This document shows, piece after piece, positions 11,764-35,797 of a stretch of DNA of 64,000 bases; position 1 is the stretch's first letter, and each line of letters opens with the position of its first letter. The notes below the pieces were generated by a model. The model was not told the origin of the DNA. It searched no databases and worked only from the letters and a program-made list of their open reading frames with translations. Origin of the DNA: Escherichia phage SelmaRatti; the sequence record MZ501103; one strand, written 5' to 3'. The position numbers and the translations under genes are program-made.

Positions 11764-11907
11764 GTGGCCAAAAACTAGACTGACAACACAGAAGGCCTGG
11801 GTATGAAAATGCTCGGGCCTTTTCTATCAGAAAATTTTATTTGCCAAATGACTGAGAATAAAGTAAACTATTTCCTAAATCCTGATAACTATAAAAAGGA
11901 AAGCCAA

Positions 11908-14900
11908 ATGAGCCATCGCATTGAAAAAGTAATTAAACGTGACGGTACTGTAGAAGACTTTGCTCCTGAAAAACTCAATGGTTGGGCAGAGTATGGTTGC
12001 AAAACAGTTGATGTAAGTTGGTCAGCCATTACTATGGCTGCTCAAAAAACCCTACCTAAAGGGGTTGTAGATTCCGACACTCTTATGGACGCATTAATTA
12101 AAGCTGCTGAAAGTCTTATCAAAGATAACCCAGCATACGATGTGCCAGCAAAGGAATTACGTCTTGCGCAAATGCGTAAGCGCCTTTATGACTCTTTCGA
12201 ACCACCTTCTCTACGCTTCTTCCATGACCACATGGTTAGCGTAGGTACATGGGAAGACATGAGTGCATGGATTACCGATGAGCAATTTGAAGCTCTGAAT
12301 CAGGTTATCGACCATGATCGTGACCGTCTTTTTACTAGTGGTGGGCTGAAGCAGTTCTTTGATAAGTATTCACGTCGTAACATAGCCACTGGTGAAATTT
12401 ACGAAACCCCTCAATTCGCCTATATGGGTATGGCAATGGCGATGTTATCTCAACCTAACTGGACAATTCTAGATGCAATCGATCTCTACAATGCAATGTC
12501 GCTCCACAAGATCAACGTTCCTACGCCGCCATTGGTTGGCTTGCGCTCTAGTGACCGTGGATTTGCTAGTTGCTGCCTCGTGGATTCCACTGACACATTG
12601 GATTCAATCGACACAGCAGAGCACATCGTCTTCAAAATGGTCGCAGCCAGAGCGGGAATCGGGTATCATCTTGAAAGCAGATCAATTGCTGATCCGGTGC
12701 GAAATGGGGCATTCCCGCATTCCGGAAAACTGCCATATTATCGACACATTGACCGCTCAGTAAAGGCCAATACTCAGCAAACTCGTGGTGGTTCTGCTAC
12801 AGTGTCTTATCCATACTTCGACCCTGAAATCATTCAATTGATGCAGGTTAAGCAACAACGTGCTACAGATGAGAATAAAATCGATAAGATGGATTATTCT
12901 CTGAGCTTTAACAATCTTTTGTTAAAACGTTATCTTAAAAACGAAGATATTACGCTAATGTCATACTTCTATGCTCCAGAAGTTCATGAAGCGTTTTATA
13001 GTGATGACGAGGCTAAATTTGAAGAAATCTACGTGGCAGCGGAGAAACGTGTGGCATCTCTTACAAAAATCGACCACGAAGGAAAAACAGTTCCAGCAGC
13101 TCCTAAAGTCTCTGCAAAAGAAATCCTAGATACTTGGCTACGTATCCGAATGGAAACAGGACGTATGTACGCTCACCACATCGGGGAATCTAATCGTCAC
13201 GGTAACTTTCTTGATCCAATCCGTATGACTAACCTTTGTGTAGCTCCAGAAACAAAAATTTTAACCAAAAATGGTAACATAGAGATTATTGATTTAGTTG
13301 GTAAAGAAGTAGAGATTTGGAACGGGCAAGAATGGTCAACAGTTATCCCTGCTAAAACTGGGGAAGCTCAGGAGTTGATGAAAATCACATTCTCTGATGG
13401 ATCTACTATTGAATCTACTCTTTATCATAAGTTCTACCACCAGCCCAAATATGTAAGAGAGGATCGTAGTACCTCCTTCAAACAGGGTCTAGAAGAGGTA
13501 CGAGCAGTAGACTTGCAAGTAGGTATGAAAATGCCTAAATTTAGTAATCCTATTGTAGATCATGGAAATATGGTACTAAAATCTCCTTATACTAACGGTT
13601 TCTTCACTGGAGATGGAACTTATGGAAGACATGGAGAACCTAAGCTGTACTTCTATGAAAAAGGAGGCAAACTACCATTAGTGGATAAAATTGACGCAAA
13701 GATTCAGGGAAGTGGATTACTGGACAGCACAGGTAGACTGAGTTATATTGTTAAGTCTGATTTAATGCCGAAGTATTTTGTACCTGGCCCAGAATACACT
13801 ATTGATAGCCGTATCAAATGGTTAGAGGGATATTTAGATGCAGATGGCTGCATACAGAAAAATGGCACAACCCCTAGTATTGTGGTTGCTTCGGCAGAGC
13901 CTGATTTTCTAAGTAAAGTGAAGGATTTGTTACTAGAATTGGGGATTACTAGCAAGATTATTTTAGGACGCCAAGAAGGTGACTACGAGTTACCAGATGG
14001 TACTGGTAGTAGTAGTAAACTATACCACTGCAAGGAGACTAGTAGGCTTATTGTGGGGAGTAGTGGCTTCTGGAAACTTAAAGATTTAGGACTCTCTTTG
14101 GATAAAGAGAAACTCTTAAACCTAACACGCCCCAATAGAGACGCAACCCGTTTTGTAACTGTAACTAACGTTGAGTTTACTGGTCGTATTAGTGATACCT
14201 ATTGCTTTACAGAACCTAAATTAAACTTGGGTGTATTTAATGGCATTTTAGCTGGTAACTGTGTAGAGATTACTCAGCCTACACGCCCGTTCCACCACAT
14301 CACAGAGCTGTATAAGACAAAAGAGCAGCTTGATCAAATGAAGCCGGAGGATATTGGTGAAGTATCTCTGTGTAACTTAGGTGGTGTTGTACTTGGACGC
14401 ATGGAATCTCTGGCTGAGTGGGAAAAAACTTGCTACATCCTTCTGAAATTCGTTGATACAATTATTGAAATTCAGGATTATCCGTTCCCAACTATGGAAT
14501 ATACGGCTAAGAAACGTCGTAATGTTGGTATTGGCCTGATGAACGCAGCAGGTGCAATGGCAGCAGAAGGTCTGGCTTATGAAGGTATTGAAGCCCGTAA
14601 CTGGATTCACCGTGAGGCTGAAAAACTGTCTTACTTCCTGCATAAAGCCTCTGTACGCCTAGCTAAAGAACAGGGCGCATGTGAGTGGTTTGATCGTACT
14701 AAACCATCTAAAGGAATTCTGGTAATCGACACTTACAAGAAAACTGTTGATGAACTGGTATCCGTAGGTCTAGAAATGGATTGGGAATCTCTGCGTGCAG
14801 ATATTCTGAAATACGGTATGCGTAACTCTGTTCTGACTGCGCAGATGCCTGGAGAAAGCTCTTCTGTACTATTGGGTGTTACCAACTCAATTGAGCCACC

Positions 14901-15264
14901 TCGTAAGATTGTATCTATCAAGGGTAGTGCAGTGAATAAAGTAATTGCAATTGCTCCAGGTGCAACCGATTGGGATACTCTCATGAGCTATAAACTGGCC
15001 TATGATATTGATCGCACTGAGTGGATCAAGTGGAACGCCGTTTACCAAAAATTCTTGAGTCAGTCATCAAGTTTCCAGATGTATTATGATTACTCTAAAT
15101 TCGAGAATGAAATCATCCCTGGCCCAGTAGTAGTTCGTGACTTTATGACTGCGGTTAAGTATGGTATAAAAACCTGGTATTATGCTAACTTTAACACTGC
15201 GAATGGTGGAGGAGCTGGTGAAGAGGCGGCAACAGGTTGTGCATCAGGCGGTTGTCAGTTATAA
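11908..15264 (+). CDS. nrdA: ribonucleoside-diphosphate reductase large subunit (class Ia), intein-containing
   Basis: ATP-cone-like N-terminus after ATG 11908 (MSHRIEKVIKRDGT); active-site NLC/VEI split by an insert; exteins sum to about 777 aa. Confidence 0.85.
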   Translation: MSHRIEKVIKRDGTVEDFAPEKLNGWAEYGCKTVDVSWSAITMAAQKTLPKGVVDSDTLMDALIKAAESLIKDNPAYDVPAKELRLAQMRKRLYDSFEPPSLRFFHDHMVSVGTWEDMSAWITDEQFEALNQVIDHDRDRLFTSGGLKQFFDKYSRRNIATGEIYETPQFAYMGMAMAMLSQPNWTILDAIDLYNAMSLHKINVPTPPLVGLRSSDRGFASCCLVDSTDTLDSIDTAEHIVFKMVAARAGIGYHLESRSIADPVRNGAFPHSGKLPYYRHIDRSVKANTQQTRGGSATVSYPYFDPEIIQLMQVKQQRATDENKIDKMDYSLSFNNLLLKRYLKNEDITLMSYFYAPEVHEAFYSDDEAKFEEIYVAAEKRVASLTKIDHEGKTVPAAPKVSAKEILDTWLRIRMETGRMYAHHIGESNRHGNFLDPIRMTNLCVAPETKILTKNGNIEIIDLVGKEVEIWNGQEWSTVIPAKTGEAQELMKITFSDGSTIESTLYHKFYHQPKYVREDRSTSFKQGLEEVRAVDLQVGMKMPKFSNPIVDHGNMVLKSPYTNGFFTGDGTYGRHGEPKLYFYEKGGKLPLVDKIDAKIQGSGLLDSTGRLSYIVKSDLMPKYFVPGPEYTIDSRIKWLEGYLDADGCIQKNGTTPSIVVASAEPDFLSKVKDLLLELGITSKIILGRQEGDYELPDGTGSSSKLYHCKETSRLIVGSSGFWKLKDLGLSLDKEKLLNLTRPNRDATRFVTVTNVEFTGRISDTYCFTEPKLNLGVFNGILAGNCVEITQPTRPFHHITELYKTKEQLDQMKPEDIGEVSLCNLGGVVLGRMESLAEWEKTCYILLKFVDTIIEIQDYPFPTMEYTAKKRRNVGIGLMNAAGAMAAEGLAYEGIEARNWIHREAEKLSYFLHKASVRLAKEQGACEWFDRTKPSKGILVIDTYKKTVDELVSVGLEMDWESLRADILKYGMRNSVLTAQMPGESSSVLLGVTNSIEPPRKIVSIKGSAVNKVIAIAPGATDWDTLMSYKLAYDIDRTEWIKWNAVYQKFLSQSSSFQMYYDYSKFENEIIPGPVVVRDFMTAVKYGIKTWYYANFNTANGGGAGEEAATGCASGGCQL
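13237..14259 (+). mobile_element. intein with LAGLIDADG homing-endonuclease domain inside nrdA
   Basis: 341 aa in frame; starts with Cys after NL, ends in Asn followed by Cys of CVEI; motifs GFFTGDGT and LEGYLDADGC. Confidence 0.75.
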
Positions 15265-23091: not shown

Positions 23092-23913
23092 ATGGGTAAA
23101 TTACAAAAACAAATACTACCATATATAGATTATATTCGAGAAATTATAAAATATAATCCTTATACCGGTAAATTATTTTATAAGCCTAATAAATACAAGA
23201 ATAAAACTTGGCACACCCTATATGCTGGGAGAGAAATATGTAGTAAGAACTCTAATGGGTACATCAGAGTTAGCTTGCTCTTAGGTAATAAACCCACAAT
23301 TATTTATGGGCACCGAATAGCGTGGTTGCTCCATTATGGTGAAGAGCCACCTGATATGATCGACCATATAAATACCATACCGTGGGATAACAGAATTCTT
23401 AATCTAAGAGAGACAAATTTTAAGTTAAATAGGATTAATACTGATAAAACCGTAGGTGTAGAACTCCTCTCCGAGGGTTTTGTGTATAGCATTACATTAG
23501 GTGGAAAGTTTTTCGTATCTCCTGGCTTCACCACTTTCGAACAAGCTAAAGGGGAAAGAGAAAAACTAGTAAATGGTTTATGTAATGCAGAAATTGGGAA
23601 GCAGACCAATATTCTAATAGACGATGTTAGAGATCTACCTGAAATGTCCATTATTTGTCGTACAGTTATAGGTGCGCTGGAACTATCAGATATGTTTAGT
23701 TTCACAGGATCCTATTTATTTATGGACTCAGATTTAGGGGATCCAGAGGTACAAGGAAAAGATTTATTAGATCATATACTATTTTTAGGTCAAAGACCAC
23801 TAAAAGTGGTTCTAGTAACATCTAATCCTGTTGACGCAGAGTACATGAGAGGAACCCTTACGTCTTATGGATACCGAGAAAATCCCAATAGATTAGAATA
23901 TGATCTATTTTAA
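23092..23913 (+). CDS. HNH homing endonuclease
   Basis: GHRIAWLLHYGEEPPDMIDHINTIPWDNRILNLRE HNH-type motif. Confidence 0.65.
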   Translation: MGKLQKQILPYIDYIREIIKYNPYTGKLFYKPNKYKNKTWHTLYAGREICSKNSNGYIRVSLLLGNKPTIIYGHRIAWLLHYGEEPPDMIDHINTIPWDNRILNLRETNFKLNRINTDKTVGVELLSEGFVYSITLGGKFFVSPGFTTFEQAKGEREKLVNGLCNAEIGKQTNILIDDVRDLPEMSIICRTVIGALELSDMFSFTGSYLFMDSDLGDPEVQGKDLLDHILFLGQRPLKVVLVTSNPVDAEYMRGTLTSYGYRENPNRLEYDLF

Positions 23914-23925: not shown

Positions 23926-24375
23926 ATGAAGGCAGCTTTGCTTTTAGTAGCTGCCCTTACCTTCAGCTTTAGTAGTCAGGCATCGCACGATGCAAAAGAA
24001 ATAGATTGCATTGCTAAAAATATCTATTTCGAAAGTCGTGGTGAGGGCATAAAGGGAATGACGGCGATTGCACATGTTACTAAAAACCGTGTAAACTCCG
24101 GTAAATTCCCAGATTCCTACTGTAAAGTATTATATCAGTCTAACCAGTTCTCTTGGGTATCTAAGAGACCAAAAGTTGATAAAACTGATGAGGCTTGGCA
24201 AACCGCCAAGAATTTAGCTAGAGTGATATACTACGTTGATTTACCACAAGATCCTACACATGGAGCACTATACTTCCATAGTGGTAAAGATAAACCTTAC
24301 TGGACAAAGAAGTTTAAGAAAACAACTAAGATTAAGGGACATACGTTTTATAAACCTGTTGTCACTAAAACTTAA
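23926..24375 (+). CDS. secreted SleB/CwlJ-like cell-wall hydrolase
   Basis: Signal peptide MKAALLLVAALTFSFSSQA; AKNIYFESRGEG...AIAHVTKNRV...FP.S.C.VLYQSNQFSWV. Confidence 0.75.
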   Translation: MKAALLLVAALTFSFSSQASHDAKEIDCIAKNIYFESRGEGIKGMTAIAHVTKNRVNSGKFPDSYCKVLYQSNQFSWVSKRPKVDKTDEAWQTAKNLARVIYYVDLPQDPTHGALYFHSGKDKPYWTKKFKKTTKIKGHTFYKPVVTKT

Positions 24376-24386
24376 AAATTTATTAA

Positions 24387-25076
24387 ATGAAAAAATTAAC
24401 ACAGGAAGAAGTAGAGAGTTACCTAGTTAGTAGAGGCTTATTCACTAATGATAAGTATACTAATACTAGGACTAAAATGCAGTTCTGTTGCACCTATGGA
24501 CATGTTTTTAATGCTACCCTAAATAATATTAGGAACGGAAGAGGTTGTCCCTACTGCTATGGAAATGTTAGGTACACTCAAGAACAAGTATCTGAATATT
24601 TGCGTAGTTTAGGATATTACACCATTACCAAATATATAAATAATAACTCTAAGCTACAACTTACTTGTAGTAAGGGGCATGTATGGATTACCACTTTTAG
24701 TGCCATAAAAAATATGGGTAATAGATGCCCTGAGTGCTCCAATATATGGAGCGATGGTGGGATACTTTATATAATAACTAGTTCATTAGGTACAAAAATA
24801 GGAATTACTAATTCTCCTGCTCGTAGGTTAAGGGATTTGATTACTGCATCCGGGGATCCCACAGCTAAGTATTATGGTCATTATACATATGGTAGCTCTT
24901 CTAAATCAGAAACCCTTGCTTTAGAGAAGAAGGCACATATGTATTTTAAAAGTCATAATTGTGGTTATAGTGGATTTGCTGGATCTACTGAATACTTTAA
25001 TATTTCCACCGAAGAGGCAGAAGAATTCCTCTTGAAAGAGGGGGCCACAATAGTACAGAAAGAGGGTGGTTTATGA
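24387..25076 (+). CDS. T5orf172-type endonuclease-like protein
   Basis: Paralog of 9649-10512: GH.W/GCPxC zinc ribbons plus ILYIITSSLGTKIGITNSPARRL. Confidence 0.6.
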   Translation: MKKLTQEEVESYLVSRGLFTNDKYTNTRTKMQFCCTYGHVFNATLNNIRNGRGCPYCYGNVRYTQEQVSEYLRSLGYYTITKYINNNSKLQLTCSKGHVWITTFSAIKNMGNRCPECSNIWSDGGILYIITSSLGTKIGITNSPARRLRDLITASGDPTAKYYGHYTYGSSSKSETLALEKKAHMYFKSHNCGYSGFAGSTEYFNISTEEAEEFLLKEGATIVQKEGGL

Positions 25077-25694: not shown

Positions 25695-25723
25695 TTGCTA
25701 AATGCTTATAAATTCTGTATAAT
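25695..25723 (+). promoter_or_regulatory. T5-type early promoter
   Basis: TTGCTA-17-TATAAT followed by the recurrent CATAAATT box. Confidence 0.65.
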
Positions 25724-25800
25724 ATATTCATAAATTAGAGAGTAATTCTTCTCTAATTTATTAAATAGTGGGGTGTGGAAATCACTTATGTAGTAACACT

Positions 25801-25872
25801 GCCGTCCTAGTATAATTGGTATTATCAAGCCGTAACTGGTGGAAGATGTAGGTTCGAATCCTACGGTCGGTA
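25801..25872 (+). pseudogene. tRNA-like element, degenerate (no clean anticodon arm)
   Basis: Perfect T-arm GTAGG-TTCGAAT-CCTAC and 6/7 acceptor pairing, but D and anticodon stems do not fold canonically. Confidence 0.35.
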
Positions 25873-26375
25873 AGAACTGGATAACTGATGCTTTTAACGT
25901 AAAAGCTTCCGAGGTTAGTTGCGCACTGCCTAAACCACGCGGTAGTTGGTTCCAGACTAACCAACCAGTCTGCTGAATAGTTTTATTACGATTTAACTAT
26001 GTCCAGGCTAAAGAAGAACTTTAGAAGGTATTTCTAGGGTAGTGAAGTTCTTTCTCCATATCGGAGTAGTTTTTCAGGCTATCCACAAAGTGGGAAATGC
26101 TGACATGAGAGATGTCACTAATGGTGCACAATAGCACAGGTAATTCGCGATAACTCCTGTTGAGTAGCAGCAAAAGGCGGGAAGTCATGACCCCAAGCCT
26201 AACCGAGTCCTCAATATACCGCAGGACATAACCACTAAGTCACCCTGACTTAAACTGGAAAATAATAGACGTTACCGTATTTTGTCTTGAAATACTTAAT
26301 GAGTGAGACTTATGACTCTCCCGGTATCGTCTGTATTTTTAAGAGTTTTTACGAGAGTTCTTAAAAATACTTAAA

Positions 26376-26450
26376 CGGGGTGTAGTCTAAGGGAGAGGCA
26401 GGAGTCTTCTAAATTCCTTTATGCAGGTTCGAATCCTGTCACCTCGGCCA
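26376..26450 (+). tRNA. tRNA-Arg(TCT)
   Basis: Hand-folded cloverleaf: acceptor CGGGGTG/CACCTCG, anticodon loop CTTCTAA, T-loop TTCGAAT, encoded CCA. Confidence 0.65.
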
Positions 26451-26484
26451 ATTTTATTAACTGTAACTAAAACAAAGGAAATAT

Positions 26485-27432
26485 ATGTTTAATACTAAAA
26501 ATATGAAAGAACTAACTTCTGAGCAGAAAGTAATTCGTACTATTAAACGTTGGGGGATTGGTGCTGTAGTTGGTTTAGCAGGTTTAATCCTAGCTTTTAA
26601 TTCATATACTATTGTTTCTGATGGTACGGTTAAAACTCAAACATTCCTGGGTAAAGTAGACCCTAATCCAGTATTACCTGGTTTCCATATTGTAAACCCG
26701 TTTGCATCTTTCGATACTTTCAGTACAAAAGATATTGCTGTAAAATTAGATAAACTTCAGGTTCCTAGTCAGGATAAGTTTAAATCCACTGTTGACCTGA
26801 CTGTTATGTTACAATTTGATGGTTCTAAGGCACCGATCAACCGTATTAATGCAGGTACTCAGGATCAGGCTCTAGATAAGTACGTAACTGAAAAATTACT
26901 GTCCACTATTCGTGAGTTCGGTAAGTCTGTACCTAAAGCACAAGATTTATTTGATGCTAAAATTCAGGCTCAATTGCAAACTGCAATTCAACAGGAAGTT
27001 GAAGAGTATGCACGCCCATATGGTTACACAGTTAAGCAGGTATTCCTTCAGGATATTACTTTGCCACCGGTAATCATGGAACAGGTACAGAATACCAAAG
27101 TTCGTGAAGAACAGGTTAATGCTGCTAAAGCTGAATTAGCTCGTGTTGAACAGGAAGCACAGCAAAAAGTTAAACAAGCAGAAGCAGATCGTGAAGCTCG
27201 CAACAACCAAGCTATCGCTAATGAACGTGACGCAGATGCTAAACTGTACGCAGCTAAGAAAGAAGCTGAAGCTAACGCCGCACTGCAACGTACCATTACT
27301 CCTGAGATGATTCGTTGGAAACAACTGGAAGTTGAGATGATTCGTGCTCAGAAATATCAAGGTGGTGTGCCGCAGACTGTGGTTGGCACTGGTTACGATG
27401 GCCAGATGATTATGGATATGCGTAATAAGTAA
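26485..27432 (+). CDS. SPFH/band-7 (prohibitin/HflKC-like) membrane protein
   Basis: N-terminal TM helix, SPFH-like core, long Ala/Glu/Gln coiled coil. Confidence 0.7.
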   Translation: MFNTKNMKELTSEQKVIRTIKRWGIGAVVGLAGLILAFNSYTIVSDGTVKTQTFLGKVDPNPVLPGFHIVNPFASFDTFSTKDIAVKLDKLQVPSQDKFKSTVDLTVMLQFDGSKAPINRINAGTQDQALDKYVTEKLLSTIREFGKSVPKAQDLFDAKIQAQLQTAIQQEVEEYARPYGYTVKQVFLQDITLPPVIMEQVQNTKVREEQVNAAKAELARVEQEAQQKVKQAEADREARNNQAIANERDADAKLYAAKKEAEANAALQRTITPEMIRWKQLEVEMIRAQKYQGGVPQTVVGTGYDGQMIMDMRNK

Positions 27433-27571
27433 TATCCACGCGTAATATTCGAAGTAAGCCCTGTGTTTCCTGGAGAGCGCAGGCAATTAAATGAATTTAT
27501 ATAAAATTTTGCTTGTTTTTGCGCGTAAAATTTTATATAATATTTACTCAAATTTGGAAGAATACGTTAAC

Positions 27572-27943
27572 ATGAATACTAATAAGAAAGGAAATATAGG
27601 GCTAGGAAGTGCGATTGCTCACTTTACTAGTAAAGGTTTGATTGTTTCACTACCTTTAAATGACAGTCAAGATTACGATCTAATCGTAGATATGGGGGGT
27701 ACTCTAAATAAAGTTCAGGTGAAATATACCTCCCAAAAGGCACCCTCTGGTAGTTATATTCTAGCTATGAGAAGTACAAGTGGCACTTCTAGAGTAGCGT
27801 ATAAGACTCTTAATGAAACTAATATTGATTTAGTGTTTGTGTATACTGATCAGTATCAGTTGTTAATTCCAATTAAGAAATTAACTAATAAAAATCAAAC
27901 TACCCTTACTAAAGAATTAGTACAAGAATTCCGAGTTATATAA
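27572..27943 (+). CDS. hypothetical protein, possible PD-(D/E)xK-like fold (123 aa)
   Basis: Start moved to ATG 27572 downstream of a T5-type promoter; DYDLIVDMGG...KVQVK resembles D-x-D/E-x-K. Confidence 0.4.
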   Translation: MNTNKKGNIGLGSAIAHFTSKGLIVSLPLNDSQDYDLIVDMGGTLNKVQVKYTSQKAPSGSYILAMRSTSGTSRVAYKTLNETNIDLVFVYTDQYQLLIPIKKLTNKNQTTLTKELVQEFRVI

Positions 27944-27945
27944 AA

Positions 27946-28035
27946 GGAAGAATACGTTAAAAGGTAAACGAGCTGATTGCTAATCAGTAGCTCTGAAATA
28001 TAGCCTTGTGGGTTCGATTCCCACTTCTTCCGCCA
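27946..28035 (+). tRNA. tRNA-Ser(GCT), long variable arm
   Basis: Acceptor GGAAGAA/TTCTTCC, D-stem CGTT/AACG, anticodon loop TTGCTAA, T-arm GTGGG-TTCGATT-CCCAC, CCA encoded. Confidence 0.7.
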
Positions 28036-28041
28036 AACATA

Positions 28042-28116
28042 GGGTCGGTAGCTTAAAGTTAAAGCGGTGGCCTCATAAGCTAACGAGTAGGAGTTAGATT
28101 CTCCTCCGACCCACCA
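28042..28116 (+). tRNA. tRNA-Met or Ile2 (CAT)
   Basis: Acceptor GGGTCGG/CCGACCC, anticodon loop CTCATAA, unusual T-loop TTAGATT, CCA encoded. Confidence 0.6.
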
Positions 28117-28291
28117 AATTAAGGAAATAAGATGTATAGACATCCACCTCCGCCAACACGTCGTTCTAGAGAAGTTATCCTCATGGAATTGACTAAAAAC
28201 TTCAAGGCAACTCTTGAAGATAGAGATTTAGGCACAGATGAAGATGTTGATTTCATCTGTAAACTATTAAAAATGAAACTGGAGAAACAAC

Positions 28292-28498
28292 ATGGCTAAT
28301 CCTGAAATTACCGCACAACGTTTCATGCTTAAAGGCATGATTGCTGAGGCAGGTATGACTCAAGAAGTTGTAGATTTTCAAAAGCAATTCCTCAATATTC
28401 TCACTCAAGCCAAAGAGCTAGGAGAGAAAGAACATGGAGCAGCAATTATGGCTATATCTCTTATTAGTCTAGACTTGGCTGAAGAATCAGGAGTTTAA
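28292..28498 (+). CDS. hypothetical protein (68 aa)
   Basis: ORF with RBS GGAGAAA. Confidence 0.45.
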   Translation: MANPEITAQRFMLKGMIAEAGMTQEVVDFQKQFLNILTQAKELGEKEHGAAIMAISLISLDLAEESGV

Positions 28499-28528
28499 CT
28501 CCTCCAAGCAGAAATTTTAAAAATGTAC

Positions 28529-28558
28529 TTGCCTTTTGCTTTAAATTTCTGATATAAT
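28529..28558 (+). promoter_or_regulatory. T5-type early promoter
   Basis: TTGCCT-18-TATAAT then ATAAATTGATGAG. Confidence 0.6.
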
Positions 28559-28587
28559 AGTTATATAAATTGATGAGAGGAATCAGA

Positions 28588-28863
28588 ATGTCAAAACGTG
28601 TTACAGCAACTGGTATTGAAAGTGTAATCTGCAAATCCTGGGAAGACAGGGAAGGTGAGATTGAATGGCTTTATTTCTATGATGTAGAACTTCTACCGGA
28701 AGTTAAAGCTAAATGTATTGAAGCTGGTATGGCTCCTGATGCTACTGCTGATGTTGAGATTATCATGAATAAGCTAGAGGGTCTGGTAATCACTGTTAGT
28801 GATGAGGGCGAAGAAGTCTTCGAACTTCCGTTCTCCTTAACTGTCACTCCTAAGTTCGACTAA
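28588..28863 (+). CDS. hypothetical protein (91 aa)
   Basis: ORF; start at ATG 28588 after RBS GAGG. Confidence 0.5.
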   Translation: MSKRVTATGIESVICKSWEDREGEIEWLYFYDVELLPEVKAKCIEAGMAPDATADVEIIMNKLEGLVITVSDEGEEVFELPFSLTVTPKFD

Positions 28864-28991
28864 CTAATACAGCACTGAGCAAGTTCTTCAAAATTTTACT
28901 TGCTCAGTGCCATAAAACTTGATATAATAGTTATCTAATTTGGAAACATATTTAAAAGTGTTTAAACTAGTATTTGAATACTTTTAAATGT

Positions 28992-29075
28992 GCATCGTTG
29001 GCAGAATGGCTATTGCAGCGGTCTGTAAATCCGTGCCCTTCGGGGTTGGTGGTTCAAATCCATCACGATGCACCA
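28992..29075 (+). tRNA. tRNA-Tyr(GTA), long variable arm
   Basis: Acceptor GCATCGT/ACGATGC, anticodon loop CTGTAAA, variable hairpin GCCCTTCGGGGT, T-arm GGTGG-TTCAAAT-CCATC, CCA. Confidence 0.65.
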
Positions 29076-29434
29076 AATTAAAGGAGCTGCTGATGCATCC
29101 TGAAAACTTCTTTATTTACTGCGAGGATAAGTAGCTGAAACGTAGAATTAACAAAGTCTATCATTATCGTGCTAGTCAACAGCCTTATATATACGCTTTT
29201 GACGGTGATCACATTCCACTAGAACAATTATCCTGTGATTACATGATATTGAAGAACTTTGACGAGACAAAGATCTCAAGCGTTCATAATCGACAGAATC
29301 CATTAACGTGGAAATATAAGAAGAAAAAGAAAGGCATCAAATTCTTAAAAAATGTAGTTGCTTAGTTTCCAAAAGTTCTGTATAATAATTACATAAATTG
29401 AACTGGAGAAGCAACATGACAGAACAAGGTAAAT

Positions 29435-29507
29435 CGACCGTTGGCTGAATTGCTTAGGTGAAGGATTGCAAATCCTTTTTATGTGAGTTCAAATCTCATG
29501 CGGTCGT
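29435..29507 (+). tRNA. tRNA-Cys(GCA)
   Basis: Anticodon arm AAGGA-TTGCAAA-TCCTT, T-arm GTGAG-TTCAAAT-CTCAT, acceptor 6/7 pairs; D-arm irregular. Confidence 0.55.
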
Positions 29508-29517
29508 CTAAATTTTA

Positions 29518-29600
29518 GGGTCGTTAGCCAAGTGGTTTGGCGGCGGATTGTTAATCCGTGTCGAAAGACAACGTAGGTTCGATTCCTGCACCCGCTGCCA
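29518..29600 (+). pseudogene. tRNA-Asn(GTT)-like, aberrant (about 14-nt extra segment, non-pairing acceptor)
   Basis: D-arm GCCA/TGGC and anticodon arm GCGGA-TTGTTAA-TCCGT fold well, but 3-prime ACCCGCT does not pair with 5-prime GGGTCGT. Confidence 0.4.
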
Positions 29601-29620
29601 TCTTAATAGAGGATTTCGAA

Positions 29621-29785
29621 ATGAAAGTATTTCGATTAGTAGTAAGTGATCGACGTTCTAGCAAAGATCGTTCGAAGTATACCTTAGCCCACTATGGTAA
29701 AGATGAAAAAGAAGTAATGGTGGAGTTTGGGATTAATCATCGCTACTTAGAAGTTTACTCTATTAAGGAAGTTTATCCGTATTAA
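29621..29785 (+). CDS. hypothetical small protein (54 aa) between tRNA genes
   Basis: ATG 29621 after RBS AGAGGA; ORF-track start lies inside the upstream tRNA-like element. Confidence 0.4.
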   Translation: MKVFRLVVSDRRSSKDRSKYTLAHYGKDEKEVMVEFGINHRYLEVYSIKEVYPY

Positions 29786-29863
29786 GGGTCGTTAGCTCAA
29801 TTGGTTAGTAGCACTTGCCTTTTAAGCAATAGGTTGAAGGTTCGAGTCCTTCACTACCCACCA
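29786..29863 (+). tRNA. tRNA-Lys(TTT)
   Basis: Acceptor GGGTCGT/ACTACCC (one mismatch), anticodon loop CTTTTAA, T-arm GAAGG-TTCGAGT-CCTTC, CCA. Confidence 0.65.
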
Positions 29864-29870
29864 AATTTTT

Positions 29871-29944
29871 GCTCGGTTAGTTTAATGGGAGAACCCCGTC
29901 TTTACACGGCGGTTGCGATAGTTCGATTCTATCACCGAGTACCA
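29871..29944 (+). tRNA. tRNA-Val(TAC)
   Basis: Acceptor GCTCGGT/ACCGAGT, anticodon loop TTTACAC, T-arm GATAG-TTCGATT-CTATC, CCA. Confidence 0.6.
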
Positions 29945-29969
29945 ATTAACTCAAAATAAGGAATTGCAA

Positions 29970-30329
29970 ATGCAATTATCAAGCAAGATTCAAGGTTATT
30001 TCGGTCATGTGACAATGGAGTTCGCTATCTCTAAAGGTTGGGATTTCGAGCAAGATCTAGCTGAGTTCTACAAAGATATTGATCTGAACGTACCGTATAT
30101 GGGACTTTCTACTGGTCAGGAGATCACAGAAGCCGATGTATTCAAGGCAAGTCAAGGTGAGATAACACCTAGTTTTGCCACTTTTTGGAGTGGCTTCACA
30201 ATTAAAGAAGAAGCTCCAGATGATGATGTATTTATGCAAAGCATGCACTCTGGGAGTTCTGATATGTTATTTGTTAAAGATGTACGACATATCCAAGAAG
30301 TGGTAAAAACGTATTTGCAAAATGCTTAA
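29970..30329 (+). CDS. hypothetical protein (119 aa)
   Basis: ORF; ATG 29970 after RBS TAAGGAA. Confidence 0.5.
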   Translation: MQLSSKIQGYFGHVTMEFAISKGWDFEQDLAEFYKDIDLNVPYMGLSTGQEITEADVFKASQGEITPSFATFWSGFTIKEEAPDDDVFMQSMHSGSSDMLFVKDVRHIQEVVKTYLQNA

Positions 30330-30876
30330 TTTCTTGTTATAATATTTATATAAATTGATGCGAAAATAGCTGCCTAGATACCAGGTGTATGACGTCTACA
30401 CTAGCAGAGCTACCGAAAAAGAGATCCTCAGGATAAACGTCGTAGCAAAATTAGTCTGGTATCCATCAATTTAGTTCACTAAGGTATTAGCTCGACCTAG
30501 GACTGGCTGCCAAAAAGCACGACCCCTACGACTCGGGAGAAGTTCTAGATTAGTCCACTAGATTCAGCGGCAACTGAATAGTGTATCGGGTTTGTGAAGA
30601 GCGGCTATCCTCTACTGGCTAATGTATGAGGTTAGTACGCACACCGAGCTAATAGCCTTAGTAAACTAAAGAATTTGGGCGAATAGTGTCAGCGGGAGCA
30701 CACCAGACTTGCAATCTGGGAGGGAGGGTTCGAGCCACTCTTTGTCCACCAAATTAAAAAGAATGCGCGCGATTGACGGAATAGGTATACGTGTAAGCCT
30801 TAGAAGTTGAATTTTGAGGGTTCGAATCCCATCGAGGCGTAACTGCCTGGTGTGATAGAGGCATCATCTTATTATT

Positions 30877-30967
30877 GGAAGAGCAAATCGAATTGGCGAC
30901 GAAAACCGCTGGGAAAGTGGCTGACTGGTAAAACGGCTTGAGAGTTCAAATCTCTCCTCTTCCGCCA
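30877..30967 (+). tRNA. type-II-length tRNA-like gene, anticodon unresolved (possibly Ser or Leu)
   Basis: Perfect acceptor GGAAGAG/CTCTTCC and T-arm GAGAG-TTCAAAT-CTCTC with CCA; internal arms not resolved by hand. Confidence 0.45.
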
Positions 30968-30979
30968 AACAATTTATAA

Positions 30980-31074
30980 GGTAGGTCAATCCAACGGCTG
31001 GCGATGGACTCCGACTTGAAATCGGTTGATCGTAGTGATACGGTGTAAGGGTTCGATCCCCTTACCTACCTCCA
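30980..31074 (+). tRNA. tRNA-Ser(TGA)-like, long variable arm
   Basis: Acceptor GGTAGGT/ACCTACC, T-arm AAGGG-TTCGATC-CCCTT, anticodon stem-loop CCGA-CTTGAAA-TCGG, CCA. Confidence 0.55.
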
Positions 31075-31440
31075 AATCTTGAAGTATGCCGGAATCGGTA
31101 GACGGGGCTTCCTAAAGGGCGTAAGGGGAACATCCACTCCTCATAAGATACCCGAAAACGAGGCTGAGATAAATGGTCTATCTCGTGAAGGTTCAAGTCC
31201 TTCTGCTTCTTGATACCTCTATGGCTCAAAGTGTAACGGTGCTATTTGATGCTCTTAGTAAGACTTTCCCGACATGCGTTCGGGGGTAAGCTGCTAAGAC
31301 TAGAGTAGAAGAGTTTCGGAGAGCCGCCACAATTGAAAATTCGTACTCGTCTTGAGCTGCGTGCAATAGGAGATAACTTGATTAGTATTCTAGAACATGC
31401 TAATTGAGGAAGGTTTCTCTAACCCTGCGAGTTTTCAATT

Positions 31441-31531
31441 GTGGCTATATCATAATTGGTTAATGATCCTGATTGTGAATCAGGCCTTCCAAGCCTCGCT
31501 GAGTAGGGTTCGATTCCCTCTAGCAGCTCCA
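31441..31531 (+). tRNA. tRNA-His(GTG)-like with unusually long extra arm
   Basis: D-arm TCAT/ATGA, anticodon arm CCTGA-TTGTGAA-TCAGG, T-loop TTCGATT, CCA; 19-nt variable region and one acceptor mismatch. Confidence 0.45.
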
Positions 31532-33588: not shown

Positions 33589-34102
33589 GAACAAAATGGA
33601 AGAATGGAAAATCATCGAGAATTTTCCATCTTATGAGGTTTCTAGCTTAGGTAGGGTTAGAAACTTAAAAACAGGAAAAATCCGAAAACCCGTAGTACAT
33701 CACAGTGGATACTTACAACTAAACCTAGTAAAGAAAGATGGGTCTAAAAAGACTGTGTATATCCATAGGGTAGTGGCCTTTGCTTTCTGCAATCCTCCTA
33801 AAAACTGGAAAGAATTAACTGTCAATCATAAAGATGGAAATAAGGAAAATGTAGAGGCTACTAACCTAGAGTGGATTAGTATGTCAGATAATTTAAAACA
33901 CACAAGACTTACTGGTTTAAATCATATAGATGGTGAAATGAACGGTAGGGCTTTATTAACAGCAGAACAGGTTCTTTGGATACGGAATGTTTATATACCC
34001 AGGGACAAGGAATTTGGGCAGAAAGCCCTTGCAGAAAAATTCAATGTTAGCAAAGCCACTATAAGCCATATAATAACACGTAGGACTTGGACAGAAATTT
34101 AA
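33581..34102 (+). CDS. HNH homing endonuclease
   Basis: ELTVNHKDGNKENVEATNLEW HNH motif; start at ATG 33581 overlapping upstream stop. Confidence 0.65.
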   Translation: MIENKMEEWKIIENFPSYEVSSLGRVRNLKTGKIRKPVVHHSGYLQLNLVKKDGSKKTVYIHRVVAFAFCNPPKNWKELTVNHKDGNKENVEATNLEWISMSDNLKHTRLTGLNHIDGEMNGRALLTAEQVLWIRNVYIPRDKEFGQKALAEKFNVSKATISHIITRRTWTEI

Positions 34103-34170
34103 ATAATTCATTTGCTAAACCTCTCTTTTCTTGCTATAATATGTTTATAAATTGATGAGAGAGGTTTGAA

Positions 34171-34452
34171 ATGAAAACTCGTCTAGATTGTGCTGTTCAT
34201 GTTCTTGAACATGATGTTGTGGGAACCTGTATGTCTTACCACGAAGCAGGTCGCTTAATTAAAGAACGTGTGGCAGATGTGTGCGGATTGAAGATTACTG
34301 TTAAGGAAGCTGATGATCTTTTAGGTCAAGCACTAGAGAAAACCGAAATGTTTCTCTGCGATTCTTGTTCTTGGTGGTGTGAAGCTCACGAACGTTCTTT
34401 CAACGATTATGATGTATGTCGTGATTGTAGTGGGGAGGATGAAGATGAATAA
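34171..34452 (+). CDS. hypothetical Cys-rich acidic protein (93 aa)
   Basis: ORF after T5-type promoter; CDSCSWWCEAH and CRDC pairs. Confidence 0.5.
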   Translation: MKTRLDCAVHVLEHDVVGTCMSYHEAGRLIKERVADVCGLKITVKEADDLLGQALEKTEMFLCDSCSWWCEAHERSFNDYDVCRDCSGEDEDE

Positions 34453-34744
34453 GTTTATTATTGCACTGATGATCTCCGCAGTTAGTTTCGGTTCTCTGGC
34501 ATCTACCAAAGTTTCTATGAAAAACGGGAATGTTAGGATACAACAGAACGGCATTATTACCGAGTATGGTAAAGTTCGTGATGTTAAAGAACGTAATGGT
34601 AAAGTAGAAATCTATACTAATAAAAACTTCTCTACTCCAGCCGTTACTATTAGCAAACACGGTGAAATAACCACTCAACGTACTAATAGCTCCGGTTCTT
34701 TTACTTGTCGTTATGATTGCGACTTTGAAGGTGAAGATGAATAA
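34445..34744 (+). CDS. secreted protein with signal peptide (99 aa)
   Basis: MNKFIIALMISAVSFGSLA signal-peptide-like N-terminus. Confidence 0.5.
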   Translation: MNKFIIALMISAVSFGSLASTKVSMKNGNVRIQQNGIITEYGKVRDVKERNGKVEIYTNKNFSTPAVTISKHGEITTQRTNSSGSFTCRYDCDFEGEDE

Positions 34745-35132
34745 TTTAGACCCTAGAATTAAATTTGCTATTACAGAAATCCAAGATCAAATTGATGAGG
34801 ACTTCACTGTTTGGTCAAGGTCTGGTAATGGAGAATATTGCCAGCTTTATAGCATGAAAATGGGTATCTCAATTGAGCTTAATATCAACTCTGAAGGTAG
34901 AGTAGAAGCCCAACCTATGTTTAGTATTCCAGGCTTCTCTGGATTTGTTGCAGGTATGAAATTGTGTCTACCAAATAACCATCTTCATCGAGTTATTTGT
35001 CAACTAGAGACTATTAAACACTTCTTACCAGAAGATAACATTAATGACCACTACCATGAAGTAGTAGCAGCTCATATGATGAAAGAATGCAAACGTCGGA
35101 GAGAAGAACGTGAAAAAGCTAAACATCAATAG
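34737..35132 (+). CDS. hypothetical protein (131 aa)
   Basis: ORF; start inferred at ATG 34737. Confidence 0.45.
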   Translation: MNNLDPRIKFAITEIQDQIDEDFTVWSRSGNGEYCQLYSMKMGISIELNINSEGRVEAQPMFSIPGFSGFVAGMKLCLPNNHLHRVICQLETIKHFLPEDNINDHYHEVVAAHMMKECKRRREEREKAKHQ

Positions 35133-35406
35133 CACAGTGCAGATTCCAGCAACTAAGGATATTTTAACATTCCTACGTAGTGAAAACACTCAGTTTTGGC
35201 ACGACTATATTCAGGAAAATAAAAATAATCCAGATATAGTGGCTTTTGCCAAAAAACGTATTGGTGAATATAAAGATCCAGAGATTAAAGATGGGATGAT
35301 TACCATGCAATTATGGATAGCTATGAAAACCTTTGGACCCACTATGAGTCTAGGATTTACTCCACTGTTTACTAATATTCTAATTAATGAAAAGGATCTG
35401 AAATGA
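35110..35406 (+). CDS. hypothetical protein (98 aa)
   Basis: ORF. Confidence 0.45.
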   Translation: MKKLNINSTVQIPATKDILTFLRSENTQFWHDYIQENKNNPDIVAFAKKRIGEYKDPEIKDGMITMQLWIAMKTFGPTMSLGFTPLFTNILINEKDLK

Positions 35407-35687
35407 TTATCTCTCCGTTTGCTCTTTGGTTCGTCATTGGCTCTGTGGTTGCTATTTACAGCTGTGTTGACGATGTGTTCTTCTCGAAAAACAAGGCTGT
35501 ATTATTAGAGCATCTGTGGCGAACTTCCCCAGATACTTTAATCTTCTTTGGTGCGGAAAAGGGATACAAGATCGCCCTAGTGATATTTATTATAATTGAC
35601 ACATTATTAGGGCCAGTAGCTCTCTACGGATTCTATCGTAAAACCCGCAAGATGAAACAACTCAAAGCTAAATACTTTGGGAAGTAA
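35403..35687 (+). CDS. hypothetical membrane protein (94 aa)
   Basis: Two hydrophobic helices. Confidence 0.5.
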   Translation: MIISPFALWFVIGSVVAIYSCVDDVFFSKNKAVLLEHLWRTSPDTLIFFGAEKGYKIALVIFIIIDTLLGPVALYGFYRKTRKMKQLKAKYFGK

Positions 35688-35797
35688 AGAATTCGCGTAG
35701 GACCGAGTTGCGTCACCTGCAACTGTTACGGATAAGGGAGTCGTGCCCCTTAGTGCGGTAAGTGGTGAGTTGGTCGCTGACCTTAACTGGAGATGAT

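What the first reader, a model, noticed from the sequence alone, without database searches (positions are those of the whole stretch)
26485..27432. SPFH/band-7 membrane protein inside the tRNA region
Seen in sequence: TM anchor, SPFH-like core and a long coiled coil. Established knowledge: SPFH proteins scaffold membrane microdomains and regulate FtsH-type proteases. Inference: a phage-encoded membrane organiser, possibly for lysis timing, injection-site protection or superinfection exclusion.
Basis: partly seen in the sequence, partly recalled or inferred. Interest (0 to 1): 0.4.

Follow-up and report, generated by a model that had tools for sequence, protein, structure and literature searches.

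The report
Phage T5-type SPFH membrane scaffold gene
The ORF is a real, well-conserved phage gene for a membrane-anchored SPFH (band-7/prohibitin-like) scaffold protein, the already-annotated T5.080 of phage T5; it is dispensable in the laboratory, yet strongly conserved and traded between unrelated phages, and its role is still unknown.

Summary
Window 26485..27432 (+) encodes a 315-aa protein with one N-terminal TM helix, an SPFH/Band_7 core (Pfam 64 bits against a cut-off of 23.6), a 76-residue helix, a second helix and a conserved C-terminal tail. Full-length fold matches are prohibitin, erlin, HflK/C, stomatin and QmcA. It lies between tRNA-Arg and tRNA-Ser in a T5-like phage and is 99% identical to T5.080. 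The SPFH assignment has been public for about 20 years, so it is not new.

What I add:
- The common "lipoprotein" label is wrong, because the protein has no Cys.
- The viable T5 st0 deletion strain lacks the gene, and CRISPRi-ART scores it "Not Fit", so it is dispensable in the lab.
- It is nevertheless near-universal in T5-likes and under strong purifying selection (dN/dS 0.01-0.1).
- Copies 72-81% identical occur in unrelated phage families, which indicates horizontal transfer.
- There is no NfeD partner, no paralogue and no universal partner gene.
- Charge bias predicts a periplasm-facing domain, as in HflK/C and prohibitin.
- It recurs near envelope and lysis genes: a SleB-like hydrolase, the RI antiholin and Ter genes.

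Best reading: a self-assembling SPFH cage on the inner membrane that acts as a conditionally useful accessory factor. Its target is not established.

The parts
25695..25723 (+). Sigma-70-type promoter-like site (TTGCTA-17-TATAAT), positional equivalent of T5 early promoter P16-17, which drives the RNAX, tRNA-Arg and SPFH unit
   Evidence: Promoter scan, 10/12 match. The region is nearly identical to the annotated T5 P16-17 region.
25731..26375 (+). Homologue of the T5 stable 'RNAX' (function unknown), lying between the promoter and tRNA-Arg. It contains a tRNA-like element at 25801-25872. Boundaries are approximate.
   Evidence: Alignment to T5 rnaX, T5 and DT57C annotation, and an Rfam tRNA hit of 35.5 bits at 25801-25872.
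26376..26450 (+). tRNA-Arg(UCU), immediately upstream of the gene and in the same orientation
   Evidence: ARAGORN and Rfam, 49.3 bits.
26475..26479 (+). Shine-Dalgarno sequence AAGGA, 5 nt before the ATG
   Evidence: Read directly from the sequence.
26485..27432 (+). CDS of the 315-aa SPFH/Band-7 protein, orthologue of T5.080
   Evidence: ORF list, Pfam, 99% identity to T5.080, dN/dS 0.01-0.1.
26554..26616 (+). Single transmembrane anchor (residues ~24-44), preceded by a Lys/Arg-rich N-terminal tail (residues 1-23, 6 K/R). The predicted topology is N-in.
   Evidence: Hydropathy and charge counts and AF2 helix 12-38.
26605..27060 (+). SPFH alpha/beta core (residues ~41-192), including the invariant VPSQDK motif (residues 93-98)
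   Evidence: Pfam Band_7, AF2 secondary structure, family alignment, and fold matches.
27067..27294 (+). Long continuous helix (residues 195-270, ~114 A), equivalent to the CC1 wall helix of SPFH cages
   Evidence: AF2 model with pLDDT ~80-90 and full-length alignments to prohibitin, erlin and HflK/C.
27301..27429 (+). Second helix (residues 273-290) and the conserved C-terminal tail (KYxGGVPQTVVG..MDMR). It is modelled with low confidence in the monomer and is the candidate cap or oligomerisation element.
   Evidence: AF2 and conservation in the 25-sequence alignment.
23926..24375 (+). Context only, a possibly linked gene: secreted SleB-like cell-wall hydrolase (PF07486, T5.083 homologue, N-terminal signal peptide), 2.1 kb upstream
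   Evidence: Pfam, 87 bits. A PF07486 gene recurs near the SPFH gene in three phage lineages.

Best explanation
The gene encodes a single-pass inner-membrane protein of the SPFH (stomatin/prohibitin/flotillin/HflK-C) superfamily, the orthologue of phage T5 gene T5.080.

Shown:
- It has the complete SPFH parts list: an N-terminal TM anchor, an SPFH alpha/beta core, a ~114 A wall helix, a second helix and a conserved C-terminal tail.
- It is transcribed in the orientation of, and directly behind, the early promoter P16-17, RNAX and tRNA-Arg unit.
- It is a single-copy, stand-alone gene with no NfeD partner and no paralogue.
- It is dispensable for laboratory growth of T5.
- It is near-universal in T5-like phages, under strong purifying selection, and shared at 72-81% identity with unrelated phage families.

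Inferred:
- Like every SPFH protein solved so far, it self-assembles into a large homo-oligomeric ring or cage that fences off a patch of the host inner membrane.
- The positive-inside rule and the fold ranking (prohibitin, erlin and HflC above stomatin, QmcA and flotillin) put the bulk of the protein in the periplasm, as for HflK/C.
- The most likely job is that of an accessory host-envelope modifier made early in infection. It would cage or shield an inner-membrane component, thereby stabilising the infected cell's envelope or the timing of its breakdown. The obvious candidate is the host FtsH quality-control protease; a membrane-tethered lysis factor is the alternative.
- The benefit would appear only under conditions absent from standard lab assays.

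My confidence is about 0.95 for the protein's identity, about 0.75 for cage assembly, about 0.6 for periplasmic orientation and about 0.25 for FtsH as the target. The overall figure refers to the mechanism as a whole.
For: Identity:
- Pfam Band_7, 64.4 bits against a cut-off of 23.6.
- AF2 model, pLDDT 77.7, with the canonical order of elements.
- Foldseek probability 1.0, full-length, to erlin, prohibitin, stomatin, HflK/C, QmcA and flotillin.
- 99% identical to T5.080.

Topology:
- The N-terminal flank is K/R-rich and the C-terminal flank neutral in 23 of 25 phage family members.

Transcription unit:
- The promoter, RNAX, tRNA-Arg and SD are nearly identical to annotated T5.

Accessory but selected:
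- T5 st0 lacks the gene entirely. The deletion maps to wild-type coordinates ~33681-41878.
- CRISPRi-ART scores it 'Not Fit', with 7 guides.
- BF23 is reported to lack it (PMC12752171).
- About 430 phage records carry a >=90% identical copy, against about 439 with a >=90% identical NrdB.
- dN/dS is 0.013-0.106.

Horizontal spread:
- The gene is 72-81% identical in T4-like, ~90 kb and ~150 kb phages, whereas NrdB drops below 60% outside the T5-likes.

Envelope context:
- RI antiholin and DUF5856 lie directly upstream in T4-likes.
- A SleB-like hydrolase lies within 1.4-2.7 kb in T5-like, ~150 kb and J3S-like ~90 kb phages.
- TerD, vWA-TerF and TelA lie adjacent in the ~150 kb lineage.

No universal partner gene was found.
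Against: - Oligomerisation, membrane insertion and orientation are predictions, and no multimer modelling was possible.
- The positive-inside bias is modest (net about +3 against about +1).
- The best sequence-level PDB hit is QmcA, which faces the cytoplasm.
- There is no match to the curated HflK/HflC models and no evidence of any contact with FtsH.
- The gene-neighbour associations are not universal. FelixO1-like SE131-type phages have the hydrolase 7 kb away, T4-likes have none within 10 kb, and bacterial homologues have none. The associations may partly reflect shared ancestry or hyperplastic regions rather than function.
- Both T5.080 and T5.083 are 'Not Fit', so no phenotype anchors any role.
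- No paper reporting a functional test of a phage SPFH protein was found.
Confidence: 0.45

Rival explanations
1. Lysis-timing or lysis-inhibition accessory. The periplasm-facing SPFH assembly would hold or stabilise membrane-tethered periplasmic lysis factors (an RI-type antiholin, a signal-anchored or secreted murein hydrolase, or holin rafts). This would tune when the envelope is destroyed.
For: In enterobacterial T4-like phages the order tk, x, rI (PF24205 antiholin), DUF5856, SPFH is conserved. In Aeromonas T4-likes the gene is in the same tk-rI interval. In T5-like and ~150 kb phages a signal-peptide-bearing PF07486 hydrolase lies 1.4-2.7 kb away, in different gene orders. The predicted periplasmic orientation fits.
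Against: The T5 holin and endolysin cassette is ~20 kb away (T5p039/040). The gene sits in an early transcription unit. The adjacency is absent in SE131-like phages and in the bacterial homologues. The tk-rI interval of T4-likes is a known variable region, so adjacency there is weak evidence. No lysis phenotype is reported, and T5 st0 lyses normally enough to be a standard lab strain.
Confidence: 0.2
2. Counter-defence or competition factor. The SPFH cage would protect the inner membrane against membrane-depolarising abortive-infection effectors, colicins or rival phages (superinfection exclusion at the DNA-entry step). It would therefore be useful only in hosts that carry such systems.
For: The pattern is typical of accessory arms-race genes: dispensable in defence-poor lab strains, strongly conserved, and horizontally exchanged among phages sharing enterobacterial hosts. 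It also lies in the T5 tRNA region, whose tRNAs counter PARIS (PMC11464382), next to T5.076, which the CRISPRi-ART annotation labels 'anti-defense'. Adjacent TerD, TelA and vWA-TerF stress genes occur in one lineage. It is expressed early.
Against: There is no hit in PADLOC and no known SPFH-based anti-defence or exclusion system in the searched literature. T5 already has Llp for receptor blocking. Arms-race genes usually evolve fast, whereas this one is very conserved (dN/dS about 0.05).
Confidence: 0.15
3. Same protein, opposite orientation. It would be a cytoplasm-facing, QmcA/stomatin/flotillin-like scaffold (N-out) that organises cytoplasmic-face membrane processes such as replication or assembly sites.
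For: The best sequence-level PDB match is QmcA, E=3e-6 for the single sequence and 5e-7 for the profile. The charge bias is only moderate.
Confidence: 0.15
4. The database labels are right: it is a lipoprotein (PHROG_200, RefSeq) or a 'membrane protease' (older T5-type annotation), or merely a coiled-coil protein.
For: PHROG_200 'lipoprotein', E=2e-86. RefSeq 'lipoprotein' labels. DT57C note 'putative membrane protease'.
Against: The protein contains no cysteine at all, so there is no lipobox, and nearly all family members lack Cys in the first 50 residues. Established family knowledge holds that SPFH domains have no protease catalytic site; the 'protease' name derives from HflK/C being FtsH modulators. 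The SPFH core is confirmed by profile and fold.
Confidence: 0.02

Closest known systems
Phage T5 gene T5.080 (YP_006908; T5p078-type) and its annotated homologues RB43ORF139c, 44RRORF098c and Aeh1ORF064c
   Same: It is 99% identical over all 315 residues and has the same synteny: P16-17 promoter, RNAX, tRNA-Arg, then the gene. The SPFH/Band 7 Pfam hit for the T4-like homologues was published in 2006 (PMC1524935). Several GenBank records already say 'SPFH domain-containing/band 7 family protein'.
   Different: Nothing material. Downstream, this phage has a PD-(D/E)XK ORF where T5 has T5.077-079 plus T5.076.
E. coli HflK/HflC (FtsH-modulating SPFH cage, PDB 7VHP/7WI3)
   Different: There is no sequence-level match at E<=1 and no hit to the curated HflK/HflC models. 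It is a single gene rather than a K/C pair. It is much shorter than HflK at the N-terminus. FtsH binding is untested.
Prohibitin PHB1/PHB2 and erlin-1/2 complexes (eukaryotic, non-cytoplasmic-facing SPFH cages)
   Different: Identity is 12-19%. Those proteins are hetero-oligomeric pairs in organelles, whereas this is a lone phage gene acting in a bacterial envelope.
E. coli QmcA (YbbK)-YbbJ SPFH-NfeD complex (PDB 8Z5G)
   Same: It is the best sequence-level PDB hit, E=3e-6, over residues 43-266. Length and architecture are the same.
   Different: QmcA faces the cytoplasm and is encoded with an NfeD partner (established knowledge). Here the charge bias predicts the opposite orientation, and no NfeD gene is among the neighbours examined in any lineage.
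Chromosomal solitary SPFH genes of Morganella/Providencia and of methylotrophic Gammaproteobacteria
   Same: They belong to the same SPFH sub-clade (57-60% and 35-41% identity) and are likewise stand-alone genes of the same length and architecture.
   Different: They sit among housekeeping genes, not in phages. In a neighbour-joining tree the Morganellaceae copies nest inside the phage clade, while the methylotroph copies form the outgroup (no bootstrap).

Membership tests
SPFH / Band 7 superfamily (Pfam PF01145) | Profile match to the SPFH alpha/beta domain above the curated threshold | tested here: met
   Band_7 E=1.8e-17, 64.4 bits against a gathering score of 23.6, residues 52-225. All listed homologues carry PF01145.
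SPFH / Band 7 superfamily (Pfam PF01145) | SPFH fold in three dimensions | tested here: met
SPFH / Band 7 superfamily (Pfam PF01145) | N-terminal membrane anchor | tested here: met
   One hydrophobic segment at residues ~24-44, KD 1.79. AF2 helix 12-38. A hydrophobic N-terminal segment (KD 1.7-3.0) is found in all 36 sequences examined, phage and bacterial.
SPFH / Band 7 superfamily (Pfam PF01145) | C-terminal helical (CC1/CC2) extension and conserved C-terminal tail | tested here: met
   Helices 195-270 and 273-290. The C-terminal KYxGGVPQTVVG..MDMR is conserved. Heptad periodicity is weak.
SPFH / Band 7 superfamily (Pfam PF01145) | Assembly into a large ring or cage oligomer on a membrane | not testable with these tools
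   Only single-chain prediction was available. Assembly is inferred from all solved family members.
HflK/HflC FtsH-modulator pair | Match to curated HflK or HflC family models | tested here: not met
   NCBIfam gave 0 families at E<=0.1. No HflK/C chain was found among PDB sequence hits at E<=1.
HflK/HflC FtsH-modulator pair | Two paralogous subunits encoded together | tested here: not met
   There is a single copy in the 64-kb window. The rest of the T5 genome holds no other copy: the st0 strain, which lacks only the ~8.2-kb deleted interval, has no tblastn match.
HflK/HflC FtsH-modulator pair | N-in topology with the bulk in the periplasm | tested here: inconclusive
   The positive-inside bias favours N-in in 23 of 25 phage members, but this is a heuristic and has no experimental support.
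HflK/HflC FtsH-modulator pair | Physical and functional interaction with FtsH | not testable with these tools
   No data. It needs pull-down or FtsH-substrate turnover assays.
Stomatin/QmcA-NfeD operon type | Adjacent NfeD-family partner gene | tested here: not met
   Flanking genes here are a YqeY-like protein, a PD-(D/E)XK endonuclease, a SleB-like hydrolase and homing endonucleases. No NfeD gene appears in the T4-like, ~90 kb, ~150 kb or bacterial neighbourhoods. The rest of the window was not scanned exhaustively for NfeD.
Bacterial lipoprotein (label of PHROG_200 and RefSeq) | Lipobox with an invariant Cys at the signal-peptide cleavage site | tested here: not met
   There is no cysteine anywhere in the protein. 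There is no Cys in the first 50 residues of 22 of the 25 phage homologues examined.
Known anti-phage defence system components (PADLOC-DB) | Profile match to any defence-system protein | tested here: not met
   0 families at E<=0.1.
T5.080 orthologous group of T5-like phages | High identity and conserved synteny with T5.080 | tested here: met
   99.0% identity over 315 aa to wild-type T5. The promoter, RNAX, tRNA-Arg and RBS upstream unit is nearly identical. The DT57C annotation names T5.080.

The most novel reading that the evidence does not exclude
The protein is a horizontally mobile viral mimic of HflK/C or prohibitin. It would form a periplasm-facing cage that captures a specific conserved host inner-membrane machine, either FtsH or a membrane-tethered lysis factor such as an RI-type antiholin, a holin or a hydrolase. 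That would give virulent phages of several families a shared, previously unrecognised way to control envelope proteolysis or lysis timing. It would be the first functionally defined SPFH protein of a bacterial virus.
Probability: 0.15. Interest if true: 0.6.

Novelty: already known. Interest (0 to 1): 0.25.

Why it matters
SPFH cages are a current topic in structural cell biology: HflK/C, prohibitin, erlin, flotillin, stomatin and QmcA structures all date from 2022-2026. How they select and regulate their clients is still open.

This gene is a compact, single-gene, homo-oligomeric SPFH protein carried by hundreds of virulent phages. It is strongly conserved yet dispensable in the lab, and it comes with an ideal natural knockout (T5 st0 against wild-type T5). 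That makes it a tractable system for asking what a minimal SPFH scaffold does to a bacterial inner membrane, and why unrelated phages keep exchanging it.

Practically, the widespread 'lipoprotein' annotation propagated from PHROG_200 is wrong for this family and should be replaced by 'SPFH/band-7 domain membrane protein'.

As a scan finding it is ordinary. The gene and its domain assignment are already in public annotation.

Tried and rejected
- NCBIfam and PADLOC scans gave no hits, so the protein cannot be filed as HflK, HflC or a defence component.
- Literature searches for 'SPFH' with 'phage T5' and for 'T5.080' returned nothing. Broader searches found only annotation-level mentions and no expression time course.
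- The sequenced T5Mos and T5123 deletions were checked and do not reach the gene. The st0 deletion does.
- A conserved partner gene was sought in 47 bacterial loci. Only lineage-specific housekeeping synteny was found, e.g. trpBA-accD-folC.
- An AAA ATPase lies immediately upstream in SE131-like and J3S-like ~90 kb phages. The two ATPases are homologous (28% identity, E=4e-41). No copy was found in the T5-like window or in the flanks examined in the T4-like and ~150 kb lineages. I therefore reject it as a general partner.
- A recent block transfer of SPFH plus hydrolase was considered. It is unlikely, because the hydrolases are only 38-49% identical while the SPFH genes are ~75% identical, and the gene order differs.
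- Megablast of the ~150 kb lineage locus against isolated phages found nothing, and tblastn found no match above 90%. That lineage is uncultured.
- Canonical coiled-coil heptad periodicity is weak. I describe the region as an SPFH wall helix rather than a classical coiled coil.
- The afdb50 fold library was unavailable.
- Minus-strand ORFs overlapping the gene (27048..27296 and 27136..27486) are treated as shadow ORFs, given the strong purifying selection in the + frame.
Full report
**1. The observation**

An ATG-initiated ORF occupies exactly 26485..27432 on the + strand and encodes 315 aa. An AAGGA Shine-Dalgarno sequence lies 5 nt upstream of the ATG.

The gene is flanked by tRNA-Arg(UCU) at 26376-26450 and tRNA-Ser at 27946-28035. 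It lies at the upstream edge of a block of ten ARAGORN-called tRNAs, 26376-31531 (Rfam agrees).

- TM anchor. The protein has one hydrophobic segment and no other: residues ~24-44, with a Kyte-Doolittle 19-residue mean of 1.79.
- SPFH core. Pfam Band_7 (PF01145) matches residues 52-225 with E=1.8e-17 and 64.4 bits, against a gathering score of 23.6.
- Overall layout. An AlphaFold2 model built on a 25-sequence alignment has mean pLDDT 77.7. It shows helix 12-38, an alpha/beta core at 41-192, one uninterrupted helix at 195-270 (~114 A), a helix at 273-290 and a low-confidence C-terminal tail.

The only qualification concerns the 'coiled coil': heptad periodicity is weak, so it is the Ala/Glu/Lys/Gln-rich wall helix typical of SPFH cages.

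**2. What genome and which gene**

The surrounding DNA is 95-97% identical to T5-like phages such as Salmonella phage Shivani, Escherichia phages DT57C and DT571/2, and mar004NP2 (Demerecviridae).

The curated DT57C and T5 records identify the gene as the orthologue of T5.080. The T5 note reads 'contains single transmembrane domain; similar to Aeh1ORF064c and 44RRORF098c'. The protein is 99% identical to T5.080.

The 800 bp upstream are almost base-for-base the T5 unit: promoter P16-17, stable RNAX, tRNA-Arg, SD. The exception is an 87-nt deletion inside RNAX. By position, and by inference, the gene belongs to an early transcription unit shared with stable RNAs.

The SPFH/Band 7 Pfam hit for the T4-like homologues RB43ORF139c, 44RRORF098c and Aeh1ORF064c was tabulated in 2006 (PMC1524935). 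Several GenBank entries already call the T5-like gene 'SPFH domain-containing/band 7 family protein'. The identification is therefore already public.

**3. A wrong label**

PHROG_200 (E=2e-86) and RefSeq call the family 'lipoprotein'. The protein contains no cysteine at all, and 22 of the 25 phage homologues examined have no Cys in their first 50 residues. With no lipobox, the lipoprotein label fails its defining test.

'Putative membrane protease' is an inheritance from the old COG name for HflK/C. By established family knowledge, SPFH domains have no catalytic site.

**4. Dispensable, yet maintained**

Evidence that the gene is dispensable:

- The GenBank record of the viable T5 st0 deletion strain joins T5p066 to a truncated T5p079.
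- A local tblastn of the whole st0 genome finds no copy, whereas wild-type T5 has one. The deletion maps to wild-type coordinates ~33681-41878, which contains T5.080 at 39791-40738.
- A transcriptome-wide CRISPRi-ART screen of T5 independently scores T5.080 'Not Fit' (7 guides, p=0.85). It also scores the nearby T5.083 'Not Fit' (PMC11879866 supplement).
- BF23 is reported to lack the gene (PMC12752171).
- The T5Mos and T5123 deletions do not reach it (PMC11464382).

Evidence that the gene is maintained:

- About 430 phage records hold a copy at >=90% identity. About 439 hold a >=90% identical NrdB, which I used as a rough census of T5-like genomes.
- Nei-Gojobori dN/dS is 0.013-0.106 within T5-likes, with dS up to 0.87. 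It is about 0.08-0.09 against other phage families.

The gene is clearly functional and selected, but only under conditions that lab assays do not reproduce.

**5. Distribution and evolution**

Copies 72-81% identical occur in several unrelated lineages:

- enterobacterial T4-like myoviruses (RB43, Cronobacter leB and GAP161, Klebsiella ~175 kb phages);
- SE131-like ~90 kb phages;
- Proteus J3S-like ~91 kb phages;
- an uncultured ~150 kb lineage.

Copies about 60% identical occur in Aeromonas T4-likes. By contrast, NrdB falls below 60% identity outside the T5-likes in all but 5 of more than 4,000 records. The SPFH gene has therefore been exchanged horizontally among phages that share enterobacterial hosts.

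An exhaustive HMMER search of 1.84 billion representatives finds only 170 clusters at E<=1e-10, so this is a small, distinct SPFH clade. At sequence level it is only marginally similar to solved SPFH proteins: QmcA at 3e-6 and prohibitin-2 at 8.5e-5, with no HflK/C hit.

Chromosomal members exist. Morganella and Providencia carry copies at 57-60% identity. These are solitary genes among metabolic genes, with different neighbours in the two genera. Methylotroph and other MAGs carry copies at 35-41% identity in core contexts such as trpBA-accD-folC.

In a neighbour-joining tree without bootstrap, the Morganellaceae copies nest within the phage clade and the environmental bacterial copies form the outgroup. 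This suggests a bacterial origin, spread among phages, and one return to a host chromosome.

**6. Partners and neighbourhood**

There is no second SPFH paralogue. No NfeD gene was found among the neighbours in any lineage examined, and no gene accompanies the SPFH gene everywhere.

Recurrent local associations do exist:

- T5-like phages: a signal-peptide-bearing SleB-like hydrolase (PF07486; here 23926..24375) lies 1.9-2.7 kb upstream.
- The ~150 kb lineage: a homologous secreted hydrolase (38% identity, E=5e-23) lies 1.4 kb downstream, and TerD, vWA-TerF and TelA lie just upstream.
- J3S-like phages: a PF07486 gene without a signal peptide lies 1.6-1.9 kb downstream.
- Enterobacterial T4-likes: the order tk, x, rI (PF24205 antiholin), DUF5856, SPFH is fixed.
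- Aeromonas T4-likes: the gene lies in the same tk-rI interval.

These are all envelope or lysis-related periplasmic functions, which is suggestive. The caveats are real, however. The lineages may not be independent. The tk-rI interval is a variable region. SE131-like phages have the hydrolase 7 kb away, and the bacterial homologues show none of this.

An AAA ATPase lies directly upstream in the two ~90 kb lineages. The two ATPases are homologous (28% identity). No copy was found in the other lineages, within the window and locus flanks available.

**7. Topology**

The N-terminal tail (residues 1-23) has six K/R and two D/E, while the 21 residues after the TM are net neutral. The same bias holds in 23 of the 25 phage sequences.

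**8. Mechanism**

Shown: a complete, single-gene SPFH protein with a membrane anchor, encoded in an early-type unit; accessory, conserved and mobile.

Inferred from the family: self-assembly into a homo-oligomeric cage that delimits an inner-membrane patch.

Committed best guess: a periplasm-facing cage that shields or sequesters a conserved inner-membrane component of the host envelope. By analogy with HflK/C and prohibitins, the leading single candidate is FtsH, at about 0.25.

Two observations fit either a conserved host target or the tight packing constraints of a large homo-oligomer: the unusually high cross-family conservation, and the clustering of copies by host group rather than by phage family.

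Rivals:
- a lysis-timing role with RI or the hydrolase (0.2);
- counter-defence or superinfection exclusion (0.15);
- the opposite orientation (0.15);
- the database labels (0.02).

**9. Verdict**

The finding is correct but ordinary. The gene and its SPFH assignment are already in public annotation, so I rate it 'already known'.

The residual interest lies in the unexplained biology: the gene is dispensable, strongly conserved and horizontally mobile. There is also a ready-made natural knockout (T5 st0) for testing what a minimal viral SPFH scaffold does.

Noticed in passing
window 11803..15264 (+): The NrdA-like ribonucleotide reductase large subunit is 1153 aa, against 811 aa (2436 nt) in T5 st0. 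It matches its PHROG profile in two blocks, 8-486 and 739-1151. This implies a ~250-aa insertion, a candidate intein or homing-endonuclease insertion.
   Followed up: no
window 27491..27943 (+): Immediately downstream of the SPFH gene is a 150-aa PD-(D/E)XK endonuclease ORF (PF11645, phrog_5018). T5 has T5.077-079, a bidirectional terminator and T5.076 at this position, and DT57C has T5.076. T5.076 is labelled 'anti-defense, Semi-Fit' in the CRISPRi-ART annotation. This looks like a locus-specific replacement, and relatives align over only 77-80% of 25800-28200.
   Followed up: partly
window 25801-25872 (+) and 29518-29594 (+): There are two Rfam tRNA-model hits (35.5 and 41.1 bits) that ARAGORN did not call. 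The first lies inside the homologue of T5's stable 'RNAX' of unknown function, so these are tRNA-like elements.
   Followed up: no
window ~25731-26375 (+): The RNAX homologue is nearly identical to T5 rnaX but lacks an 87-nt segment present in T5 (alignment columns 588-674).
   Followed up: partly
window 27476-27480 (+): A Pu-GCGC motif (AGCGC) lies 44 nt after the SPFH stop codon. At the equivalent place T5 annotates a major single-strand interruption (nick) site with consensus Pu-GCGC.
   Followed up: no
window 23092..23913 (+) and 24387..25076 (+): Two homing-endonuclease-like ORFs (HNH phrog_99; endonuclease phrog_681) flank the SleB-like hydrolase gene. The second is absent at this position in DT57C.
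   Followed up: no
L070 1337-4936 and L071 (uncultured ~150 kb phage contigs): A phage lineage with no cultured relative carries a TelA, vWA-TerF-like and TerD cluster directly upstream of its SPFH gene, with a secreted PF07486 hydrolase just downstream. This looks like a phage-borne Ter-type membrane-stress module.
   Followed up: partly
L072 3707-4915, L102 8687-9934: In two ~90 kb phage lineages a ~400-aa AAA-type ATPase (PF00004; weak nSTAND hits) sits immediately upstream of the SPFH gene. The two ATPases are homologous at 28% identity. No copy was found in the T5-like window or in the T4-like and ~150 kb loci examined.
   Followed up: yes
L002 (NZ_JBHSCL010000010.1, 178 kb contig in a 'Flagellimonas marina' assembly): This contig carries tk, rI, DUF5856, SPFH and NadR-like genes 92-100% identical to Cronobacter phage leB. 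It is a complete T4-like phage genome sitting in a bacterial assembly, most likely a contaminant or co-cultured phage. Similar 177 kb 'Enterobacter asburiae' and 'Klebsiella plasmid' entries appear among the protein hits.
   Followed up: partly
Literature: Vi01-like phage Sajous1 gp200: [quoted passage not shown] This may be membrane carry-over, or it may hint that some phage SPFH proteins are made in quantity late in infection.
   Followed up: no
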